From: a virus
Direction: 5' to 3' (one strand)
IMG/VR virus record: IMGVR_UViG_3300029515_000010
Coordinates: 1-45,382 of that record
Length of the DNA: 45,382 nt
Shown: positions 27,469-32,330 of the stretch, one piece after another
Layout: every line of letters begins with the position of its first letter
Numbering within the stretch: position 1 is the first letter of the stretch
Notes under the pieces: model-generated
The model's input: the letters and a program-made list of their open reading frames with translations, nothing else
Databases searched by the model: none
What the model was told of the DNA's origin: nothing
Program-made: the position numbers and the translations under genes

Positions 27469-28650
27469 TTAGTCACAGTTAGTCACAAATGGGACTTTTA
27501 TCTTTTCAATCTCTGTACGGAGTTCTTCCAATGTCCGGTGACCATAAACGGCGTTTGTAACATCACCGCCGAATGAATGGCCGAGCATCCGTTTTCGGTC
27601 GTTCTCCCGGACGCCGTATTTTTCGCACAGCGCAGAAAAGGTGTGTCGACAATCGTGCGGCGTGTGCTTCGGATCACCGACTATTCCTAAGCGTTCCAGT
27701 GTAGGATAGAACAACGCTTTTCTGTGATGCTGCTGAGTATATACGCATAGTTTTCCATCTTGTGTCAGTACTTTCTGTTCGACAAAACGGTATATAGCGG
27801 GATGTATCGGAACAATTCTGTTTTTACCGGCTTTTGTTTTGATGCCGCCTTGAAAGTATCCTTCTTCTAAGTTGGTCGTAAGTTTTAGCACTTCACCGAT
27901 TCTCCAGCCGGAGTAACACATAATAAGAATGAGCTGCACTTCTGGATCGTCGGTATTATTCCACAGCACTTGCATTTCCTGATCAGAAAAGGGTGTTCCA
28001 TGTTCGGTGTCATTATCAGCATTGACATGGACATATAACGCCTTATTTTCCGTTACGATTTCTGAGTAAACAGCATATTTATACATCTGCTTGAACAGCG
28101 TAAGGATCGCCATAAGACTCTGACGTTTTAACGGGCAGTCATCAATGACTTTTTGCAGATCAGGTGCTTTTAAATCCTCGAATACACGATTATACAGAGC
28201 CGTGCAGTTTGAGTAAGCGGTCTGGTAAGCTATCTTTGAGCTATAAGAAAGTTTTGAACCCTCCGGAAACTTCCATGCGTAAAACTTCTCATATACCTCT
28301 GAAAACGTCAATTTCTTGATTTCCGGGTGTTTATCCTCGACACCCTTGATTGTATTGTAGTCAGCGATCAAACGAGTAACAAGGGTATCTACGTCCGTTG
28401 TAGGTGATATCTCAAGGTCTCGTTCCATCCCTGGCTGATATGTTCCTGCCTTGTATGCGGTCAGTACAGTAAATCCTTTAATCCAGTCGTCTACATAGCA
28501 GATTGCAGGCGGTCGGACGGGCTTTCCGGTCTTTTCATCCAGCACTGCCGGAGGATGGACCGCAAACGGATTTCTGCGATTGCCGCCCAGGTACCGTATT
28601 GTTCCGAAACTGTTAGGGAGTTTCGGGTATTTCTTTCTTTTCTTCGCCAT
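27469..28650 (-). CDS. int: Tyrosine integrase
   Basis: 393 aa. C-terminal catalytic region SGWRIGEV ... HDCRHTF ... MLGHS ... VYGHRT (R, HxxR, H and Y residues). Confidence 0.9.
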   Translation of the reverse strand: MAKKRKKYPKLPNSFGTIRYLGGNRRNPFAVHPPAVLDEKTGKPVRPPAICYVDDWIKGFTVLTAYKAGTYQPGMERDLEISPTTDVDTLVTRLIADYNTIKGVEDKHPEIKKLTFSEVYEKFYAWKFPEGSKLSYSSKIAYQTAYSNCTALYNRVFEDLKAPDLQKVIDDCPLKRQSLMAILTLFKQMYKYAVYSEIVTENKALYVHVNADNDTEHGTPFSDQEMQVLWNNTDDPEVQLILIMCYSGWRIGEVLKLTTNLEEGYFQGGIKTKAGKNRIVPIHPAIYRFVEQKVLTQDGKLCVYTQQHHRKALFYPTLERLGIVGDPKHTPHDCRHTFSALCEKYGVRENDRKRMLGHSFGGDVTNAVYGHRTLEELRTEIEKIKVPFVTNCD

Positions 28651-28820
28651 TTTTATTCCCTCTTTCTGTAGCTGTATTTAGGTATAAAAATAACAGCCGA
28701 ACAAACTTTCTGACTTGCCCGACTGCTCCGAAGATGATACAATATGTTTTGCCAGAATATTACATTTCTTCGGAGATGTATAAACGCCACCTCGGTACGC
28801 TAATGCCGGGGTGGTTTTTA

Positions 28821-29120
28821 TTAATTATGCGATTTCCAATTGACTCTCATTACAATTCCTACAATCCAATAAATTCCACCAGTGAAGATTCCTAAAATGA
28901 AAATCCAAAACCAACTTAAATACCATGGCATTTTCCGTCTTATATATGGCGTACCTGAACTTGCCGCTGAGGACGCAGAGGAAGACGCAGAATTGTTAAT
29001 GACGATGTCTCTGTTGTTAGAAGTCAACTGCTCTACTTGCTTTCCGCACTTAGGACACACTACGCAGTCGTCGTCGATAAGTTCTCCGCAGTGCTTACAA
29101 TATTTTTTCTTTTCATTCAT
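28821..29120 (-). CDS. Zinc-ribbon membrane protein (lysogeny-module moron)
   Basis: 99 aa from ATG 29120 (GGGAGGGTG 6 nt upstream). CKHCG...CPKCG, a Ser-rich linker, then a hydrophobic C-terminus WYLSWFWIFILGIFTGGIYWIVGIV. Confidence 0.6.
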   Translation of the reverse strand: MNEKKKYCKHCGELIDDDCVVCPKCGKQVEQLTSNNRDIVINNSASSSASSAASSGTPYIRRKMPWYLSWFWIFILGIFTGGIYWIVGIVMRVNWKSHN

Positions 29121-29171
29121 GATAAACACCCTCCCGATATGTTTTCACCACGTTTCGCACTTTCCATGCGG

Positions 29172-29201
29172 ATTATGTATTTTGTACCGCTGATTTTGCA
29201 A
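29172..29201 (-). promoter_or_regulatory. Candidate promoter for the Zn-ribbon membrane gene
   Basis: The minus strand reads TTGCAA (29201-29196), an 18-nt spacer, then CATAAT (29177-29172). Confidence 0.35.
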
Positions 29202-29349
29202 TATTATGTAAAGTACGGTTATTCGTGGTATTTTTATTTTATCATTTTAAGAGCATATTGTAAAGATTTAGAATGAAATAGAGTGATTTAGATGAAAAAG
29301 AAATGTTTTTTTCTATAAAATAGTGAAAGTTCATGTATATCATTGGCAG

Positions 29350-29378
29350 TTGCCAAGAGTCGGAATAGGTGGTATAAT
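29350..29378 (+). promoter_or_regulatory. Strong sigma-70-type promoter
   Basis: TTGCCA (29350-29355), a 17-nt spacer, then TATAAT (29373-29378). Confidence 0.7.
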
Positions 29379-29386
29379 AGCAAAAG

Positions 29387-29400
29387 CGAACTAATGTTCG
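29387..29400. promoter_or_regulatory. Perfect LexA (Cheo / SOS) box CGAACTAATGTTCG
   Basis: Exact match to the Gram-positive LexA consensus CGAAC-N4-GTTCG. It starts 9 nt after the -10, so it covers the predicted transcription start. Confidence 0.7.
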
Positions 29401-29466
29401 GTTCTATTTCCCACAGCCGAACATATACTGTAGTGTAGGTGGTAGTTGTGACAGGGAGGGTTATTT

Positions 29467-29565
29467 ATGGATTATAAGAAAGAAATTATTGAAATGATAC
29501 AAAAGATAGAAAACAGATGTTGGCTGAGGTCAATATACATTTTCATAAAAACATTAATCGGTTAA
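29467..29565 (+). CDS. 32-aa ORF downstream of the SOS-box promoter
   Basis: MDYKKEIIEMIQKIENRCWLRSIYIFIKTLIG. GGGAGGG RBS 7 nt upstream. A terminator follows. Confidence 0.5.
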   Translation: MDYKKEIIEMIQKIENRCWLRSIYIFIKTLIG

Positions 29566-29573
29566 AAAGAAAA

Positions 29574-29607
29574 GCCAAGGGTTTGCGCATTGCCCTTGGC
29601 TATTTTC
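29574..29607. terminator. Bidirectional terminator between the small ORF and the convergent repressor gene
   Basis: GCCAAGGG (29574-29581) pairs with CCCTTGGC (29593-29600). An A-run lies upstream and TATTTTCT downstream. Confidence 0.7.
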
Positions 29608-29979
29608 TCATTTCTTTTCGTAAATCGTGTCTAGGAGCTTTTCTAAGTTATCCCATCCAGAATCATCCAGCTTTGCTAGAGCATTGATGAGACGGTATTT
29701 AAAATCATCATCACTAGACTTTAGAACATTTCCGAACAACTTAGAAATTTCATCGTTTTTGTTCTCTGGTTGAAACGGTTCTCCAGTTCCATTCCTTAAC
29801 CATTCTTCGTTTACAGAACATTTCTCGCAGATTAATTGAATTACTGCGTCTGTAGGAGTTCTTCTTCCAGTTTCATAACTAGATAAATTTGCCTTTGGTA
29901 TTCCCAAAAAGCTTGCAAATAAATCTTGACTCTTCCAATTAGGATTAGAATTTCTTATTTGCTTTATTCTGTTTTTCAA
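29608..29979 (-). CDS. CI-like repressor (XRE HTH, no S24 peptidase domain)
   Basis: 123 aa from TTG 29979 (GGAGG 8 nt upstream; the track start GTG 29988 overlaps the RBS). HTH QDLFASFLGIPKANLSSYETGRRTPT. Divergent from the early operon. Confidence 0.8.
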   Translation of the reverse strand: MKNRIKQIRNSNPNWKSQDLFASFLGIPKANLSSYETGRRTPTDAVIQLICEKCSVNEEWLRNGTGEPFQPENKNDEISKLFGNVLKSSDDDFKYRLINALAKLDDSGWDNLEKLLDTIYEKK

Positions 29980-30003
29980 TTCGTACACCTCCTTTCAAAT
30001 AAG

Positions 30004-30032
30004 ATTATACACCACATAATTAAAAAAGTAAA
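30004..30032 (-). promoter_or_regulatory. Candidate repressor-maintenance promoter
   Basis: The minus strand reads TTTACT (30032-30027), a 17-nt spacer, then TATAAT (30009-30004). Confidence 0.35.
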
Positions 30033-30041
30033 TAATAAAAA

Positions 30042-30113
30042 TTGTACAATGTACAAAAATAGTGCTTGACAAAAGTTGTACATAGTATTATATTAAGAGT
30101 GTACAAAGTACAA
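30042..30113 (+). promoter_or_regulatory. Early rightward promoter with three TTGTACA-type operator sites
   Basis: O1 is a perfect palindrome TTGTACA-A-TGTACAA (30042-30056). TTGACA (30066-30071), 17 nt, TATATT (30089-30094). An O2 half-site TTGTACA (30076-30082) lies in the spacer. O3 is GTGTACAAAGTACAA (30099-30113). Confidence 0.65.
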
Positions 30114-30134
30114 CAAAGGAGGTGAAAAAAAACA

Positions 30135-30494
30135 GTGAAGCGCAAGAAAAAAGAAATCGACAAAACAATTTCTGACCTGTGGAATCGTATCTGGGATTTG
30201 CAAGACCAGACAAACAAAATCAAGAAAGCAGTTCTGACAGGTGAAAAAGGTGATTTAAAGATGCCAGAAAGAAGGATTGTTCCTCCAGATGAGCCTATTC
30301 CGTTTGGCGGGGCAGTAGATATGGACTGTATCTTTGAGAAAGAACCATGTGAACAGGTAGACGTTGAATTTACAGTGAAAGAAACTTTGCAAATGTATTC
30401 ACATTATGTAGATTCATTGTCTACCGATACACATGTATTGGGAGTTATTGCAATAGTTTCTCTAATAATTGCAATAGTGGCTCTGCTTGTATAG
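30135..30494 (+). CDS. Tail-anchored membrane protein, first gene of the early operon (not Cro-like)
   Basis: 119 aa. GTG start 10 nt after GGAGGTG. C-terminal hydrophobic VLGVIAIVSLIIAIVALLV. Confidence 0.55.
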   Translation: MKRKKKEIDKTISDLWNRIWDLQDQTNKIKKAVLTGEKGDLKMPERRIVPPDEPIPFGGAVDMDCIFEKEPCEQVDVEFTVKETLQMYSHYVDSLSTDTHVLGVIAIVSLIIAIVALLV

Positions 30495-30976: not shown

Positions 30977-31669
30977 ATGAACGAATTACAGATTTTTAAT
31001 TCAGAAGAGTTCGGGGACATCCGAACAGCAGAAATTGACGGGAAACCGTATTTTGTTGGAGCTGACGTTGCGAAAGCTCTTGGCTACAAGGACACGGTTA
31101 ATGCACTTAAACAGCATTGCCGTGGGGTGGTAAAACACCACCTCACAGATTCTCTCGGCAGGAATCAGGAAGCGAGTTTCATAACAGAGGGAGATTTGTA
31201 CCGCTTGATTATGAAATCGAAACTTCCATCGGCAGAGAAATTCGAATCATGGGTTATGGATGAAGTTCTTCCAACAATCAGAAAGACAGGCTCATACCAG
31301 AAGCCACTGACGACAGTTGAACAGATACAGGTTATTGCGACAGGATTCTTAGATCACGAAGAGCGGCTTAACAGACTTGAAAATACTATGACTATTGACT
31401 ACGCACAGCAGGAATCTATTAGAGACTTAGTGTCAAGTGTCGTAATTGCTCACCTTGGTGGGAAAGAGTCAAATGCTTACAAGGAAATTGGCAAGAAAGT
31501 ATTTGCTGAATGCAACAGGGATATAAAGACTTACTTCGCAGTAAACGCCCGTAATAACATCCCTAAGCTGAGATTTGAAGAATCTATGGAATATGTCAGA
31601 AATTGGCATCCATGCACTAATACAGTAATGATGATACGTGACTGTAATGCTCAAATGAGTATCAGTTAG
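30977..31669 (+). CDS. Antirepressor (Bro-N domain plus ORF6C-like C-terminal domain)
   Basis: 230 aa. LQIFNSEEFGDIRTAEIDGKPYFVGADVAKALGYKDTVNALKQHC...SEKFESWVMDEVLPTIRKTGSY is a classic Bro-N / P22 Ant-like N-terminus. Confidence 0.85.
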   Translation: MNELQIFNSEEFGDIRTAEIDGKPYFVGADVAKALGYKDTVNALKQHCRGVVKHHLTDSLGRNQEASFITEGDLYRLIMKSKLPSAEKFESWVMDEVLPTIRKTGSYQKPLTTVEQIQVIATGFLDHEERLNRLENTMTIDYAQQESIRDLVSSVVIAHLGGKESNAYKEIGKKVFAECNRDIKTYFAVNARNNIPKLRFEESMEYVRNWHPCTNTVMMIRDCNAQMSIS

Positions 31670-32144: not shown

Positions 32145-32330
32145 ATGAGCAGAAATAGCACAAATAAATGTGAAAATGTTCCGACATGGGACGAACTTGA
32201 GTTCATTCTTGCGACAGAAATTGTCGAAGAAAGTAGAAAAAAAGCAAGAAAATGGTTTATTGCATGGTTGGTCGCAACTGCCGCACTGGTAGCAAGCAAT
32301 CTGGCGTGGATTATGGGAGAAATGAAATGA
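32145..32330 (+). CDS. Small membrane protein
   Basis: 61 aa with C-terminal hydrophobic WFIAWLVATAALVASNLAWI. Confidence 0.45.
   Translation: MSRNSTNKCENVPTWDELEFILATEIVEESRKKARKWFIAWLVATAALVASNLAWIMGEMK

What the first reader, a model, noticed from the sequence alone, without database searches (positions are those of the whole stretch)
29350..29607. Perfect LexA (Cheo) box on a consensus promoter driving a 32-codon ORF that converges on the CI-like repressor
TTGCCA-17 nt-TATAAT (29350-29378) is followed 9 nt later by CGAACTAATGTTCG (29387-29400). That is an exact match to the Gram-positive LexA operator consensus CGAAC-N4-GTTCG, and it covers the predicted transcription start. The transcript has a ~80-nt leader. 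In it, GUUCGG can pair with either the upstream CGAAC or the downstream CCGAAC (29417-29422). A GGGAGGG RBS and a 32-aa ORF (MDYKKEIIEMIQKIENRCWLRSIYIFIKTLIG) follow. The unit ends at a bidirectional terminator shared with the convergent repressor gene.

The repressor (123 aa) has no S24 autocleavage domain, so it cannot sense RecA directly. This SOS-controlled micro-gene, or its read-through antisense RNA into the repressor gene, is a good candidate for the induction trigger. It is separate from the Bro-N antirepressor at 30977. I found no other perfect Cheo box in the window.
Basis: partly seen in the sequence, partly recalled or inferred. Interest (0 to 1): 0.75.

Follow-up and report, generated by a model that had tools for sequence, protein, structure and literature searches.

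The report
SOS-controlled micro-protein antirepressor candidate
A strong promoter covered by a perfect LexA (DNA-damage) operator drives a conserved 32-codon gene that ends tail-to-tail with a gut-phage repressor that has no self-cleavage domain; it is most likely the small protein that switches this prophage on after DNA damage, a known kind of switch carried here by an undescribed protein family.

Summary
It shows TTGCCA-17-TGgTATAAT, the window's only perfect Cheo box at predicted +2..+15, an 82-nt leader, GGGAGGG, a 32-aa ORF and a bidirectional terminator. The convergent 123-aa repressor has an HTH domain and no S24 domain.

Comparative data make this more than chance. The micro-ORF is a real protein family of 32-38 aa. 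At least 469 IMG/VR loci encode a relative, and pN/pS is 0.32 in the unbiased codons. Of 108 distinct loci, 79 keep a perfect GAAC-N4-GTTC, in four or more promoter/leader contexts with no evident sequence similarity.

The variable C-terminal half of the peptide tracks the repressor's small helical C-terminal domain one-to-one. It does not track the repressor's HTH domain.

The closest published system is AimX/AimC of Bacillus phage phi106. There a 29-aa ORF behind a LexA site converges on the repressor gene and blocks repressor oligomerisation. The window has the same architecture, but no arbitrium genes and no detectable sequence homology.

Best reading (0.6): a LexA-derepressed micro-antirepressor that binds the repressor's C-terminal domain. 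An antisense mechanism is less likely.

Verdict: new member of a known kind; nothing was tested experimentally. In passing, small integrase-bearing elements carry tandem arrays of 3-4 paralogues of different classes.

The parts
29350..29378 (+). Sigma-A type promoter: -35 TTGCCA (29350-29355), 17-nt spacer, extended -10 TGgTATAAT (29370-29378)
   Evidence: 11/12 match, TG present. It is conserved in most related loci. In relatives the -35 lies inside the codons W-Q-L-P-R at the 3' end of an upstream membrane-protein ORF.
29387..29400 (.). LexA operator (Cheo box) CGAACTAATGTTCG, at predicted +2..+15
   Evidence: It is the only perfect match in the window. The core GAAC-N4-GTTC is perfect in 79/108 distinct loci, and the 14-mer is perfect in 49. 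Other promoter contexts also carry a box. One of them, AGAACAAATGTTTG, is identical to the C. difficile recA operator core bound by LexA in vitro (PMC4234289).
29385..29466 (+). Predicted 82-nt 5' leader. A possible hairpin forms between 29394-29403 (AUGUUCGGUU) and 29415-29424 (AGCCGAACAU).
   Evidence: It is no more stable than shuffles (z -0.11). The hairpin pairs in 99% of cells, with only one-sided changes. Single-nucleotide indels among relatives show the leader is not coding. There is no Rfam family.
29454..29460 (+). Shine-Dalgarno GGGAGGG, 6 nt before the ATG
   Evidence: A GGAGG-type SD at the same distance is kept in all leader types, although the leaders differ.
29467..29565 (+). 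Micro-ORF of 32 aa: MDYKKEIIEMIQKIENRCWLRSIYIFIKTLIG
   Evidence: Thirty peptide variants were found in 112 distinct loci. At least 469 IMG/VR loci encode a relative. This exact peptide is listed in 809 blocks of the gene index. The 1.84-billion-protein library holds 24 clusters at 50% identity, including members without the MDYKK start. pN/pS is 0.32 for codons 12-32 at pS 0.50. AF2 predicts one amphipathic helix, pLDDT 92. There is no Pfam, PHROG or PDB match.
29574..29600 (.). Bidirectional intrinsic terminator hairpin shared by the micro-ORF and the repressor gene
   Evidence: An equivalent GC hairpin with an A-run and a T-run is present at the junction in every phage-context peptide/repressor class. 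In one class it is built from the overlapping stop codons.
29608..29979 (-). Repressor of 123 aa (probable TTG start at 29979; a GTG at 29988 abuts the SD). It has an XRE-type HTH, a linker and a three-helix C-terminal domain.
   Evidence: Pfam finds HTH_3 only. PHROG transcriptional repressor/regulator families match. AF2 gives pLDDT 84: HTH 1-63, then helices 74-87, 91-102 and 106-122. The best full-length Foldseek PDB hits include AimC 9iaq, SinR/SinI 1b0n and the phi106 repressor+AimX 9sf2, but they are weak (E about 6e-3 to 9e-3, TM about 0.5).
30004..30032 (-). Predicted promoter of the repressor gene (TTTACT-17-TATAAT)
30042..30114 (.). Three repressor operator-like sites: TTGTACAATGTACAA (30042-30056), TTGTACATAGTA (30076-30087) and GTGTACAAAGTACAAC (30099-30114)
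   Evidence: The sites flank and overlap the early promoter. Several sites imply cooperative, oligomerisation-dependent binding; that step is inference.
30066..30094 (+). Early (lytic) promoter TTGACA-17-TATATT. It leads to the 119-aa ORF and then the Bro-N/ORF6C gene at 30977.
29292..29318 (+). Remnant (MKKKCFFL*) of an upstream membrane-protein gene. About 234 bp are deleted in the window relative to L079, L076 and L007.
   Evidence: Context only. In relatives this gene runs into the micro-ORF promoter with no terminator between them.

Best explanation
The unit is a LexA-repressed micro-gene that encodes a 32-aa helical antirepressor for the convergent prophage repressor.

In the lysogen, host LexA sits on the perfect Cheo box at +2..+15 of a near-consensus promoter and keeps it shut. 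The host is Blautia-like, in the Lachnospiraceae.

Proposed sequence after strong DNA damage:
1. RecA-stimulated LexA cleavage frees the promoter.
2. A transcript of about 215 nt (about 29385 to 29600) is made and stops at the shared terminator.
3. The peptide is translated from a strong SD.
4. The peptide binds the repressor's small three-helix C-terminal domain.
5. This prevents the oligomerisation needed to occupy the three TGTACA operators.
6. The early promoter at 30066 fires.

What is shown: the sequence features, their conservation, selection on the protein, and the peptide-class to C-terminal-domain-class correspondence.

What is inferred: LexA binding in this host, damage inducibility, the peptide-repressor contact, and the oligomerisation block. 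The last two steps are taken by analogy with phi106 AimX/AimC and SinI/SinR.
For: 1. Regulatory signal. The Cheo box is perfect and unique, and it lies over the predicted start of an 11/12 promoter. The core box is perfect in 79/108 distinct loci. It also recurs in contexts with no evident sequence similarity:
- after the -10 with a different short leader (L007)
- as AGAACAAATGTTTG (L050/L061), identical to the LexA-bound C. difficile recA operator core
- inside the spacer of a different promoter, TTGACA-AATACGAACATATGTTC-TATAAT, in a locus found through a 69%-identical repressor (L172).

2. The product is a protein.
- The SD is kept in all leader types.
- pN/pS is 0.32 at pS 0.50 in codons 12-32.
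- 24 clusters at 50% identity share Y[KR]xxIIEM[IV]xxIENxxWLRSIY.FIKTL, even with different N-termini.

3. The partner.
- In phage lysogeny modules the ORF converges on an HTH repressor of about 114-132 aa.
- Sampling by repressor first recovered the ORF in 4/4 near-identical and 2/2 diverged lineages.
- About 9 peptide C-terminal classes match the repressor C-terminal-domain classes one-to-one. The same C-terminal domain occurs with 2-3 different HTH domains, and the peptide follows the C-terminal domain.

4. The repressor needs an outside trigger. It has no S24 domain and no ImmA neighbour.

5. Precedent. The 29-aa AimX of phi106 lies just downstream of a LexA site and converges on aimC. [quoted passage not shown] AimC, SinR and the phi106 repressor are among the top full-length structural neighbours of the repressor model.

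6. Action in trans is plausible. Small elements carry arrays of 3-4 paralogues of different classes and have no C-terminal-domain-bearing repressor beside them.
Against: - There is no experimental datum for this family.
- The class correspondence could be pure physical linkage. The 3' ends of the two genes abut, and the classes are too diverged to recombine internally.
- Sequence mimicry of the repressor's C-terminal domain is not statistically supported. The window pair gives z 3.7 (3/500 shuffles), the other classes are not significant, and hhalign probability is 2.8%.
- Foldseek hits are weak and largely driven by the HTH domain.
- Sixteen of 108 loci have 2 or more mismatches to the core box.
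- In many relatives an upstream membrane-protein ORF, with its own promoter-like sequences and no LexA box, runs into the micro-ORF with no terminator. The gene may therefore also be transcribed independently of SOS.
- The LexA motif of the actual host was not determined here.
- AF2 of the complex could not be run.
Confidence: 0.6

Rival explanations
1. The RNA is the effector. SOS-induced convergent transcription, or a read-through antisense RNA, interferes with expression of the repressor gene. The ORF is incidental or only a helper.
For: The arrangement is convergent, with only 42 nt between the stop codons. In some classes the two ORFs overlap by 4 nt. Antisense regulation was originally proposed for aimX.
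Against: A GC hairpin with flanking A and T runs sits at the junction in every phage-context class. The ORF is under purifying selection and has a conserved SD. In phi106, recoded and stop-codon alleles showed that the protein is required, not the RNA. The repressor already present in the cell would still have to be removed.
Confidence: 0.1
2. The peptide is SOS-induced but has another target. Candidates are a host factor (a LexA/RecA modulator like GIL01 gp7, or a cell-division inhibitor like YneA/SosA) or a toxic, membrane-active peptide of the type I toxin sort. On this reading it does not act on the phage repressor.
For: The peptide is a small amphipathic helix. The N-terminal half is nearly invariant across classes, which could reflect a conserved partner outside the phage. 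SOS-induced small proteins with such roles exist; this last point is from my own knowledge.
Against: There is no hydrophobic stretch long enough for a transmembrane helix, and several classes end in charged tails such as KYLKSKKQGD. The C-terminal half is class-specific and follows the repressor's C-terminal domain, which is hard to explain with a conserved host target. No antisense sRNA gene or Rfam match was found. In phage lysogeny modules it is placed against the repressor gene whatever the integrase type, tyrosine or serine.
Confidence: 0.15
3. The micro-ORF is the distal gene of a lysogen-expressed moron operon with the upstream membrane protein, for example for exclusion or immunity. 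The LexA box only modulates it, and it is not the induction trigger.
For: In many relatives a 86-150-aa membrane-anchored ORF with its own promoter-like sequence precedes the micro-ORF. No terminator lies between them and no LexA box lies upstream. Some leader types (L002, L017, L177) lack a good box.
Against: The window and L170 have lost that gene but kept the promoter, box, leader and ORF intact. L172 has an independent LexA-box promoter and no membrane ORF upstream. Constitutive expression would not explain a perfect high-affinity LexA site over a near-consensus promoter.
Confidence: 0.1

Closest known systems
AimX/AimC of the 'extended arbitrium' module of Bacillus phage phi106 and relatives (bioRxiv 10.1101/2025.11.23.689978; PDB 9sf2, 9iaq)
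   Same: Both have a micro-ORF (29 aa in phi106, 29-80 aa in the family) just downstream of a LexA site. It converges on, or overlaps, the 3' end of an XRE-type repressor gene. The repressor has an HTH domain, a linker and a small helical C-terminal oligomerisation domain, with no S24 domain. The small proteins are highly divergent, helical and presumed specific for their repressor. AimC and the phi106 repressor appear among the top full-length structural neighbours of the window's repressor model.
   Different: No aimR/aimP genes lie upstream: between the integrase and the micro-ORF there is only a Zn-ribbon gene and a gene remnant. LexA would therefore be the only evident input. Neither the peptide nor the C-terminal domain shows detectable sequence similarity to any PDB chain. 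The host is a gut Lachnospiraceae, not Bacillus. Here the peptide has a near-invariant N-terminal half and a class-variable C-terminal half.
SinI/SinR of Bacillus subtilis (PDB 1b0n)
   Same: A small helical antagonist binds the C-terminal helical multimerisation domain of an XRE-type HTH repressor and blocks the oligomerisation needed for DNA binding. SinR is among the structural neighbours.
   Different: SinI is homologous to the SinR C-terminus. Here peptide/C-terminal-domain similarity is at most marginal. SinI/SinR is a chromosomal biofilm switch, is not LexA-controlled and is not convergent.
LexA-controlled phage antirepressors: Tum of coliphage 186, Gifsy/Fels antirepressors of Salmonella (PMC3121763), Sar of phi3T/SPbeta (bioRxiv 10.1101/2025.11.27.690993)
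   Same: The logic is the same. The repressor cannot be cleaved, host LexA represses a small antirepressor gene, and DNA damage induces the prophage through it. The pairs are specific, and action in trans between co-resident elements is documented.
   Different: These are different protein families and larger proteins. The repressor types differ (Sar targets an integrase-fold repressor by DNA mimicry). The gene positions differ, and several have Gram-negative hosts.
TF-smORF modules of linear plasmid-like vibriophages (PMC10432266)
   Same: A very small protein inactivates the master repressor and sets prophage fate.
   Different: Those modules are driven by a phage-encoded transcription factor next to the smORF and act independently of DNA damage. 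Here no adjacent transcription factor exists, and the only evident operator is for host LexA.

Membership tests
Firmicutes SOS (LexA/Cheo-box) regulon member | Operator matching CGAAC-N4-GTTCG (core GAAC-N4-GTTC) | tested here: met
   Perfect 14-mer at 29387-29400, the only one in the window. Consensus as cited in PMC4234289.
Firmicutes SOS (LexA/Cheo-box) regulon member | Operator overlaps the promoter or transcription start | tested here: met
   The box starts 9 nt after the -10, at predicted +2..+15. In L172 it lies inside the -35/-10 spacer. The transcription start is predicted, not mapped.
Firmicutes SOS (LexA/Cheo-box) regulon member | Operator conserved in orthologous loci | tested here: met
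   79/108 loci have a perfect core and 13 more have one mismatch. The box is present in four or more promoter/leader contexts. The loci are related by descent, so these counts are not independent.
Firmicutes SOS (LexA/Cheo-box) regulon member | LexA binding and DNA-damage inducibility in the host | not testable with these tools
   The host is only inferred as Blautia-like. Its lexA/recA operators could not be retrieved.
AimX/AimC-type small antirepressor module | Micro-ORF convergent on or overlapping the 3' end of an HTH repressor gene | tested here: met
   29467-29565(+) against 29608-29979(-), with a shared terminator.
AimX/AimC-type small antirepressor module | Repressor built as HTH + linker + small helical C-terminal oligomerisation domain, with no S24 domain | tested here: met
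   Pfam finds HTH_3 only. The AF2 model has a three-helix C-terminal domain. Oligomerisation through it is inferred.
AimX/AimC-type small antirepressor module | Embedded downstream of aimR-aimP (arbitrium signalling) | tested here: not met
   Between the integrase (27469-28650) and the micro-ORF there is only a 102-aa Zn-ribbon membrane ORF and a gene remnant.
AimX/AimC-type small antirepressor module | Sequence homology to AimX or AimC | tested here: not met
   No PDB chain matches the peptide at E<=10, and none matches the C-terminal domain; only the HTH domain matches, best to PezA. 9sf2 and 9iaq are in the Foldseek PDB library. I assumed, but did not verify, that the PDB sequence set also holds them. 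Structural similarity is weak.
AimX/AimC-type small antirepressor module | Direct binding of the peptide to the repressor's C-terminal domain, blocking oligomerisation and DNA binding | not testable with these tools
The only indirect support is the peptide-class to C-terminal-domain-class correspondence.
SinI/SinR-type antagonist | Antagonist homologous to the repressor's own multimerisation helices | tested here: inconclusive
   In the window pair, DYKKEIIEMIQKIENRCW aligns with DFKYRLINALAKLDDSGW at z 3.7 (3/500 shuffles); other classes are not significant. hhalign probability is 2.8%.
SOS-induced type I toxin (TisB-like) | Hydrophobic transmembrane peptide with a cis or trans antisense sRNA | tested here: not met
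   There is no uninterrupted hydrophobic stretch long enough for a transmembrane helix, and some classes have charged tails. No sRNA or Rfam match was found.
TF-smORF induction modules | Adjacent phage-encoded transcription factor that activates the smORF | tested here: not met
   No transcription-factor gene is adjacent on the promoter side.

The most novel reading that the evidence does not exclude
The MDYKK micro-proteins may form a modular 'key' family. A near-invariant N-terminal half would provide a common function, and a class-variable C-terminal half would pick out one repressor C-terminal-domain class.

Phages would carry the one key for their own repressor under LexA control. Small integrase-bearing, satellite-like elements carry tandem arrays of 3-4 keys of different classes in their own early operon. 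These could act as master keys that induce, or break the immunity of, several resident Lachnospiraceae prophage types in trans.

At least three of the four array members closely resemble peptides paired with distinct repressor lineages in phages: two with distinct C-terminal-domain classes, and one with the P0113-type repressor of L177.
Probability: 0.3. Interest if true: 0.8.

Novelty: new member of a known kind. Interest (0 to 1): 0.55.

Why it matters
Most temperate phages of abundant gut Clostridia have short XRE-type repressors with no cleavage domain. How DNA damage, antibiotics or inflammation induce them is largely unknown.

If this reading is right, one unannotated 32-38-aa gene family would explain SOS induction for a very widespread group of Blautia/Lachnospiraceae prophages. 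The exact peptide is listed in 809 blocks of the gene index, and at least 469 IMG/VR loci encode a relative.

It would also give a simple annotation rule: a LexA box followed by a micro-ORF that converges on the repressor gene. And it would extend the AimX/SinI-type mechanism beyond Bacillus arbitrium phages.

The class-specific C-terminal halves and the multi-paralogue arrays offer a tractable system for studying cross-induction and immunity-breaking among co-resident gut mobile elements.

Tried and rejected
1. The search for related loci with the repressor, and an exact-DNA scan of the ORF 5' end, both in GTDB genome contigs. Both returned nothing. The host had to be inferred from flanks of integrated copies instead.

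4. Peptide as a mimic of the repressor's C-terminal domain. Pairwise alignments with shuffles were significant only for the window's class, and profile-profile comparison was negative. This is kept as a lead, not a finding.

5. Leader as a structured RNA or riboswitch.
- There is no excess folding energy, no Rfam hit beyond the terminator hairpin and no compensatory changes.
- Leader diversity (0.19) is only moderately below that of ORF third positions (0.33).
- Rejected as an established element.

6. The long upstream ORF called through the promoter and leader in some contigs. It is rejected as coding there, because single-nucleotide indels shift the frame among relatives.

7. Excisionase/RDF idea, raised by the proximity to the integrase. 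Rejected, because the same peptide occurs with tyrosine and with serine recombinases.

8. tblastn of the peptide against GenBank phages gave no match. A full-text search for MDYKKEII gave no paper.

9. Pfam, PHROGs and PDB gave nothing for the peptide.
Full report
**1. The observation**

- The promoter is TTGCCA (29350-29355), a 17-nt spacer and TGgTATAAT (-10 at 29373-29378). The consensus scan gives it 11/12 with an extended -10, tied for the best score in 28600-30300.
- CGAACTAATGTTCG lies at 29387-29400. It is the only perfect CGAAC-N4-GTTCG in the 45-kb window.
- GGGAGGG lies at 29454-29460, six nt before the ATG at 29467.
- The ORF ends at 29565 and encodes MDYKKEIIEMIQKIENRCWLRSIYIFIKTLIG.
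- The hairpin GCCAAGGG/CCCTTGGC (29574-29600) has an A-run on one side and a T-run on the other.
- The convergent gene at 29608-29979(-) has only an HTH_3 domain.

Taken alone, the box is weak evidence. Sites with up to 1 mismatch are expected 0.69 times per window. The case rests on its position and its conservation.

**2. Setting**

The locus is the lysogeny module of a temperate phage. In order it holds:
- the endolysin gene, then the integrase (27469-28650, -)
- a Zn-ribbon membrane ORF (28821-29129, -)
- the micro-gene (+), meeting the repressor gene (-)
- three TGTACA-type operator-like sites (30042-30114) around a TTGACA-17-TATATT early promoter (30066-30094)
- early genes, including the Bro-N/ORF6C gene at 30977.

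Integrated copies of essentially the same phage sit beside a host spoIIIAA-AF operon. The flanking SpoIIIAE is 88% identical to a protein named 'uncultured Blautia sp.'. The host is therefore a spore-forming, Blautia-like member of the Lachnospiraceae.

**3. The micro-ORF is a real, widespread protein family**

- An exact-DNA scan of IMG/VR with the first 26 nt found 69 loci.
- A peptide-pattern scan (MDYKKEI) found at least 469 loci that encode a relative.
- The exact 32-aa product is listed in 809 blocks of the gene index.
- An exhaustive HMMER search of 1.84 billion representatives gave 24 clusters at 50% identity with E<=1e-3. Some members have other N-termini, for example MEEKEFYREQIIDMVQKIENAYWLRSIYIFIKTLIE.
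- Among 28 distinct ORF sequences of the window's class, pN/pS is 0.32 for codons 12-32 at pS 0.50. The value of 0.05 for codons 1-11 is partly an ascertainment artefact, because residues 1-7 were part of the search pattern.
- A GGAGG-type SD is kept at the same distance in every leader type.
- AF2 predicts a single amphipathic helix, pLDDT 92.
- Pfam, PHROGs, PDB sequences, GenBank phages and the paper library hold nothing for it.

**4. The LexA box is conserved**

Of 108 distinct loci with at least 130 nt of upstream sequence:
- 79 have a perfect GAAC-N4-GTTC core
- 13 have one mismatch
- 49 have the perfect 14-mer.

These loci share ancestry, so the counts are not independent. The box also appears in contexts that show no evident sequence similarity:
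- after the -10 of a promoter with a different, shorter leader (L007: CGAACAAACGTTCG)
- as AGAACAAATGTTTG directly after a TATAAT in the L050/L061 type. This is the same sequence as the C. difficile recA operator core shown to bind LexA (PMC4234289).
- inside the spacer of a different promoter, TTGACA-AATACGAACATATGTTC-TATAAT. This locus was reached through a 69%-identical repressor rather than through the peptide (L172).

Sixteen loci have 2 or more mismatches, including the L002, L017 and L177 types.

**5. Link to the repressor**

In every phage-context class the ORF ends tail-to-tail with an HTH repressor of about 114-132 aa. A GC hairpin sits at the junction. In one class the hairpin is made from the overlapping stop codons.

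About nine peptide C-terminal classes correspond one-to-one with classes of the repressor's C-terminal ~50 residues. They do not correspond with classes of its HTH domain:
- C-terminal-domain class 0 occurs with two HTH types, class 1 with three, and class 4 with two.
- HTH type 0 occurs with C-terminal-domain classes 0 and 1.
- The peptide always follows the C-terminal domain.

So the block [variable half of the peptide + terminator + C-terminal domain] is inherited as a unit, while the DNA-binding domain is exchanged. That is what a cognate antirepressor/target pair would look like. It is also what tight linkage without internal homology would produce. I cannot separate the two explanations.

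The AF2 model of the repressor (18-sequence alignment, pLDDT 84) shows an HTH domain (1-63), a linker and three helices (74-87, 91-102, 106-122). Its best full-length PDB neighbours include AimC (9iaq), SinR in the SinR/SinI complex (1b0n) and the phi106 repressor bound to AimX (9sf2). The scores are weak (E about 6e-3 to 9e-3, TM about 0.5) and largely carried by the HTH domain. The repressor has no S24 domain, and no ImmA-type protease gene lies beside it.

**6. Mechanism and rivals**

The best-supported reading is an SOS-derepressed micro-antirepressor that binds the repressor's C-terminal domain and prevents cooperative occupation of the three operators. I put this at 0.6.

The antisense alternative is disfavoured for three reasons:
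- the junction terminator is present in every phage-context class
- selection acts on the protein
- recoded and stop alleles in phi106 showed that the RNA is dispensable.

A host target or a toxin role fits poorly with the class-specific C-terminal half and with the lack of a transmembrane-length hydrophobic stretch.

A real caveat is the upstream membrane-protein ORF (86-150 aa) found in many relatives. It ends in ...VYHWQLPR, and the -35 TTGCCA lies within those last codons. It has its own promoter-like sequences and no LexA box, and no terminator separates it from the micro-ORF. Some SOS-independent transcription is therefore possible. In the window about 234 bp of that gene are deleted, yet the promoter, box, leader and ORF are intact.

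The leader is not detectably structured:
- its folding energy gives z -0.11
- the hairpin 29394-29403/29415-29424 is kept only through A/G changes opposite U
- single-nucleotide indels rule out coding through it.

**7. Comparison with known systems**

The closest system is AimX/AimC. In phi106 a 29-aa ORF just downstream of a LexA site converges on aimC and overlaps it. [quoted passage not shown] The authors themselves compare it to SinI/SinR.

The window shares the architecture and the LexA input. It fails two membership features: no aimR/aimP genes are present, and no sequence homology is detectable. So it works like AimX but is not a member of that family.

The broader kind is long established: LexA-controlled antirepressors for repressors that cannot be cleaved. 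Examples are Tum of phage 186, the Gifsy antirepressors (PMC3121763) and Sar of phi3T/SPbeta.

I therefore rate it a new member of a known kind. It is a new, unannotated protein family in a new host clade.

**8. Seen in passing**

Small (14-20 kb) integrase-bearing, phage-related contigs carry tandem arrays of 2-4 paralogues of different C-terminal classes.
- The arrays lie at the end of the element's own early operon.
- That operon sits next to a 70-aa HTH_26 repressor that has no C-terminal domain.
- There is no convergent repressor with a C-terminal domain.
- At least three of the four array members closely resemble peptides that pair with distinct repressor lineages in phages: two with distinct C-terminal-domain classes, and one with the P0113-type repressor of L177.

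This suggests action in trans on other elements' repressors. It is the most novel reading that the data allow.

Noticed in passing
L133-L138, L161-L167 (e.g. L165 12404-12845); L131 2389-2600: Small (14-20 kb) integrase-bearing, phage-related contigs carry tandem arrays of 2-4 MDYKK micro-ORFs of different C-terminal classes. Each ORF has its own SD. The array lies at the 3' end of an operon next to a 70-aa HTH_26 repressor and is followed by a terminator and the integrase gene. No LexA box lies directly upstream, and there is no convergent repressor with a C-terminal domain. This may be a multi-specificity antirepressor set that acts in trans.
   Followed up: partly
window 28750-28822 (+), promoter-like 28715-28743: A noncoding stretch between the integrase and the Zn-ribbon gene is 70-80% conserved in Ruminococcus gnavus phages. 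It has a TTGCCC-17-TACAAT promoter. It folds into two hairpins, the second a terminator, with z -5.0 against shuffles. It may be a small RNA of about 70 nt.
   Followed up: partly
window 29292-29318 and 29309/29314 junction: This is the remnant (MKKKCFFL*) of a membrane-protein gene that precedes the micro-ORF in many relatives. About 234 bp are deleted in the window and in L170. In relatives the gene ends ...VYHWQLPR, so the micro-ORF's -35 hexamer (TTGCCA) lies inside its last codons.
   Followed up: yes
L170 12615-18617, L171 12796-18872: Integrated copies of this phage lie directly beside the host spoIIIAA-AF sporulation operon. A 105-aa ORF sits next to the integrase. The phage may have inserted in or next to a late spoIIIA gene. 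The host SpoIIIAE is 88% identical to a protein named 'uncultured Blautia sp.'.
   Followed up: partly
L010/L012/L039/L011/L015 repressor genes (homologues of window 29608-29979): The repressors are mosaics. The same C-terminal domain is joined to 2-3 different HTH domains, and the reverse also occurs. The exchange point is near the conserved NEEWLR.G.G linker.
   Followed up: yes
window 29979 vs 29988: The longest ORF of the repressor starts at a GTG that abuts the AGGAGG SD. The TTG at 29979 has an 8-nt spacer and gives the 123-aa product. Most public gene calls use that product.
   Followed up: partly
window 32192-32205: A one-mismatch Cheo-like site, CGAACTTGAGTTCA, lies inside the 61-aa ORF at 32145-32330. 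It is most likely chance, since 0.69 such sites are expected per window.
   Followed up: no
L177 1918-2016(-) and upstream: One diverged lineage has the micro-ORF without any Cheo box. It sits directly behind a 111-aa signal-anchored ORF, and a CTGTTAAAACAG palindrome lies upstream. This may be a different regulatory input.
   Followed up: no
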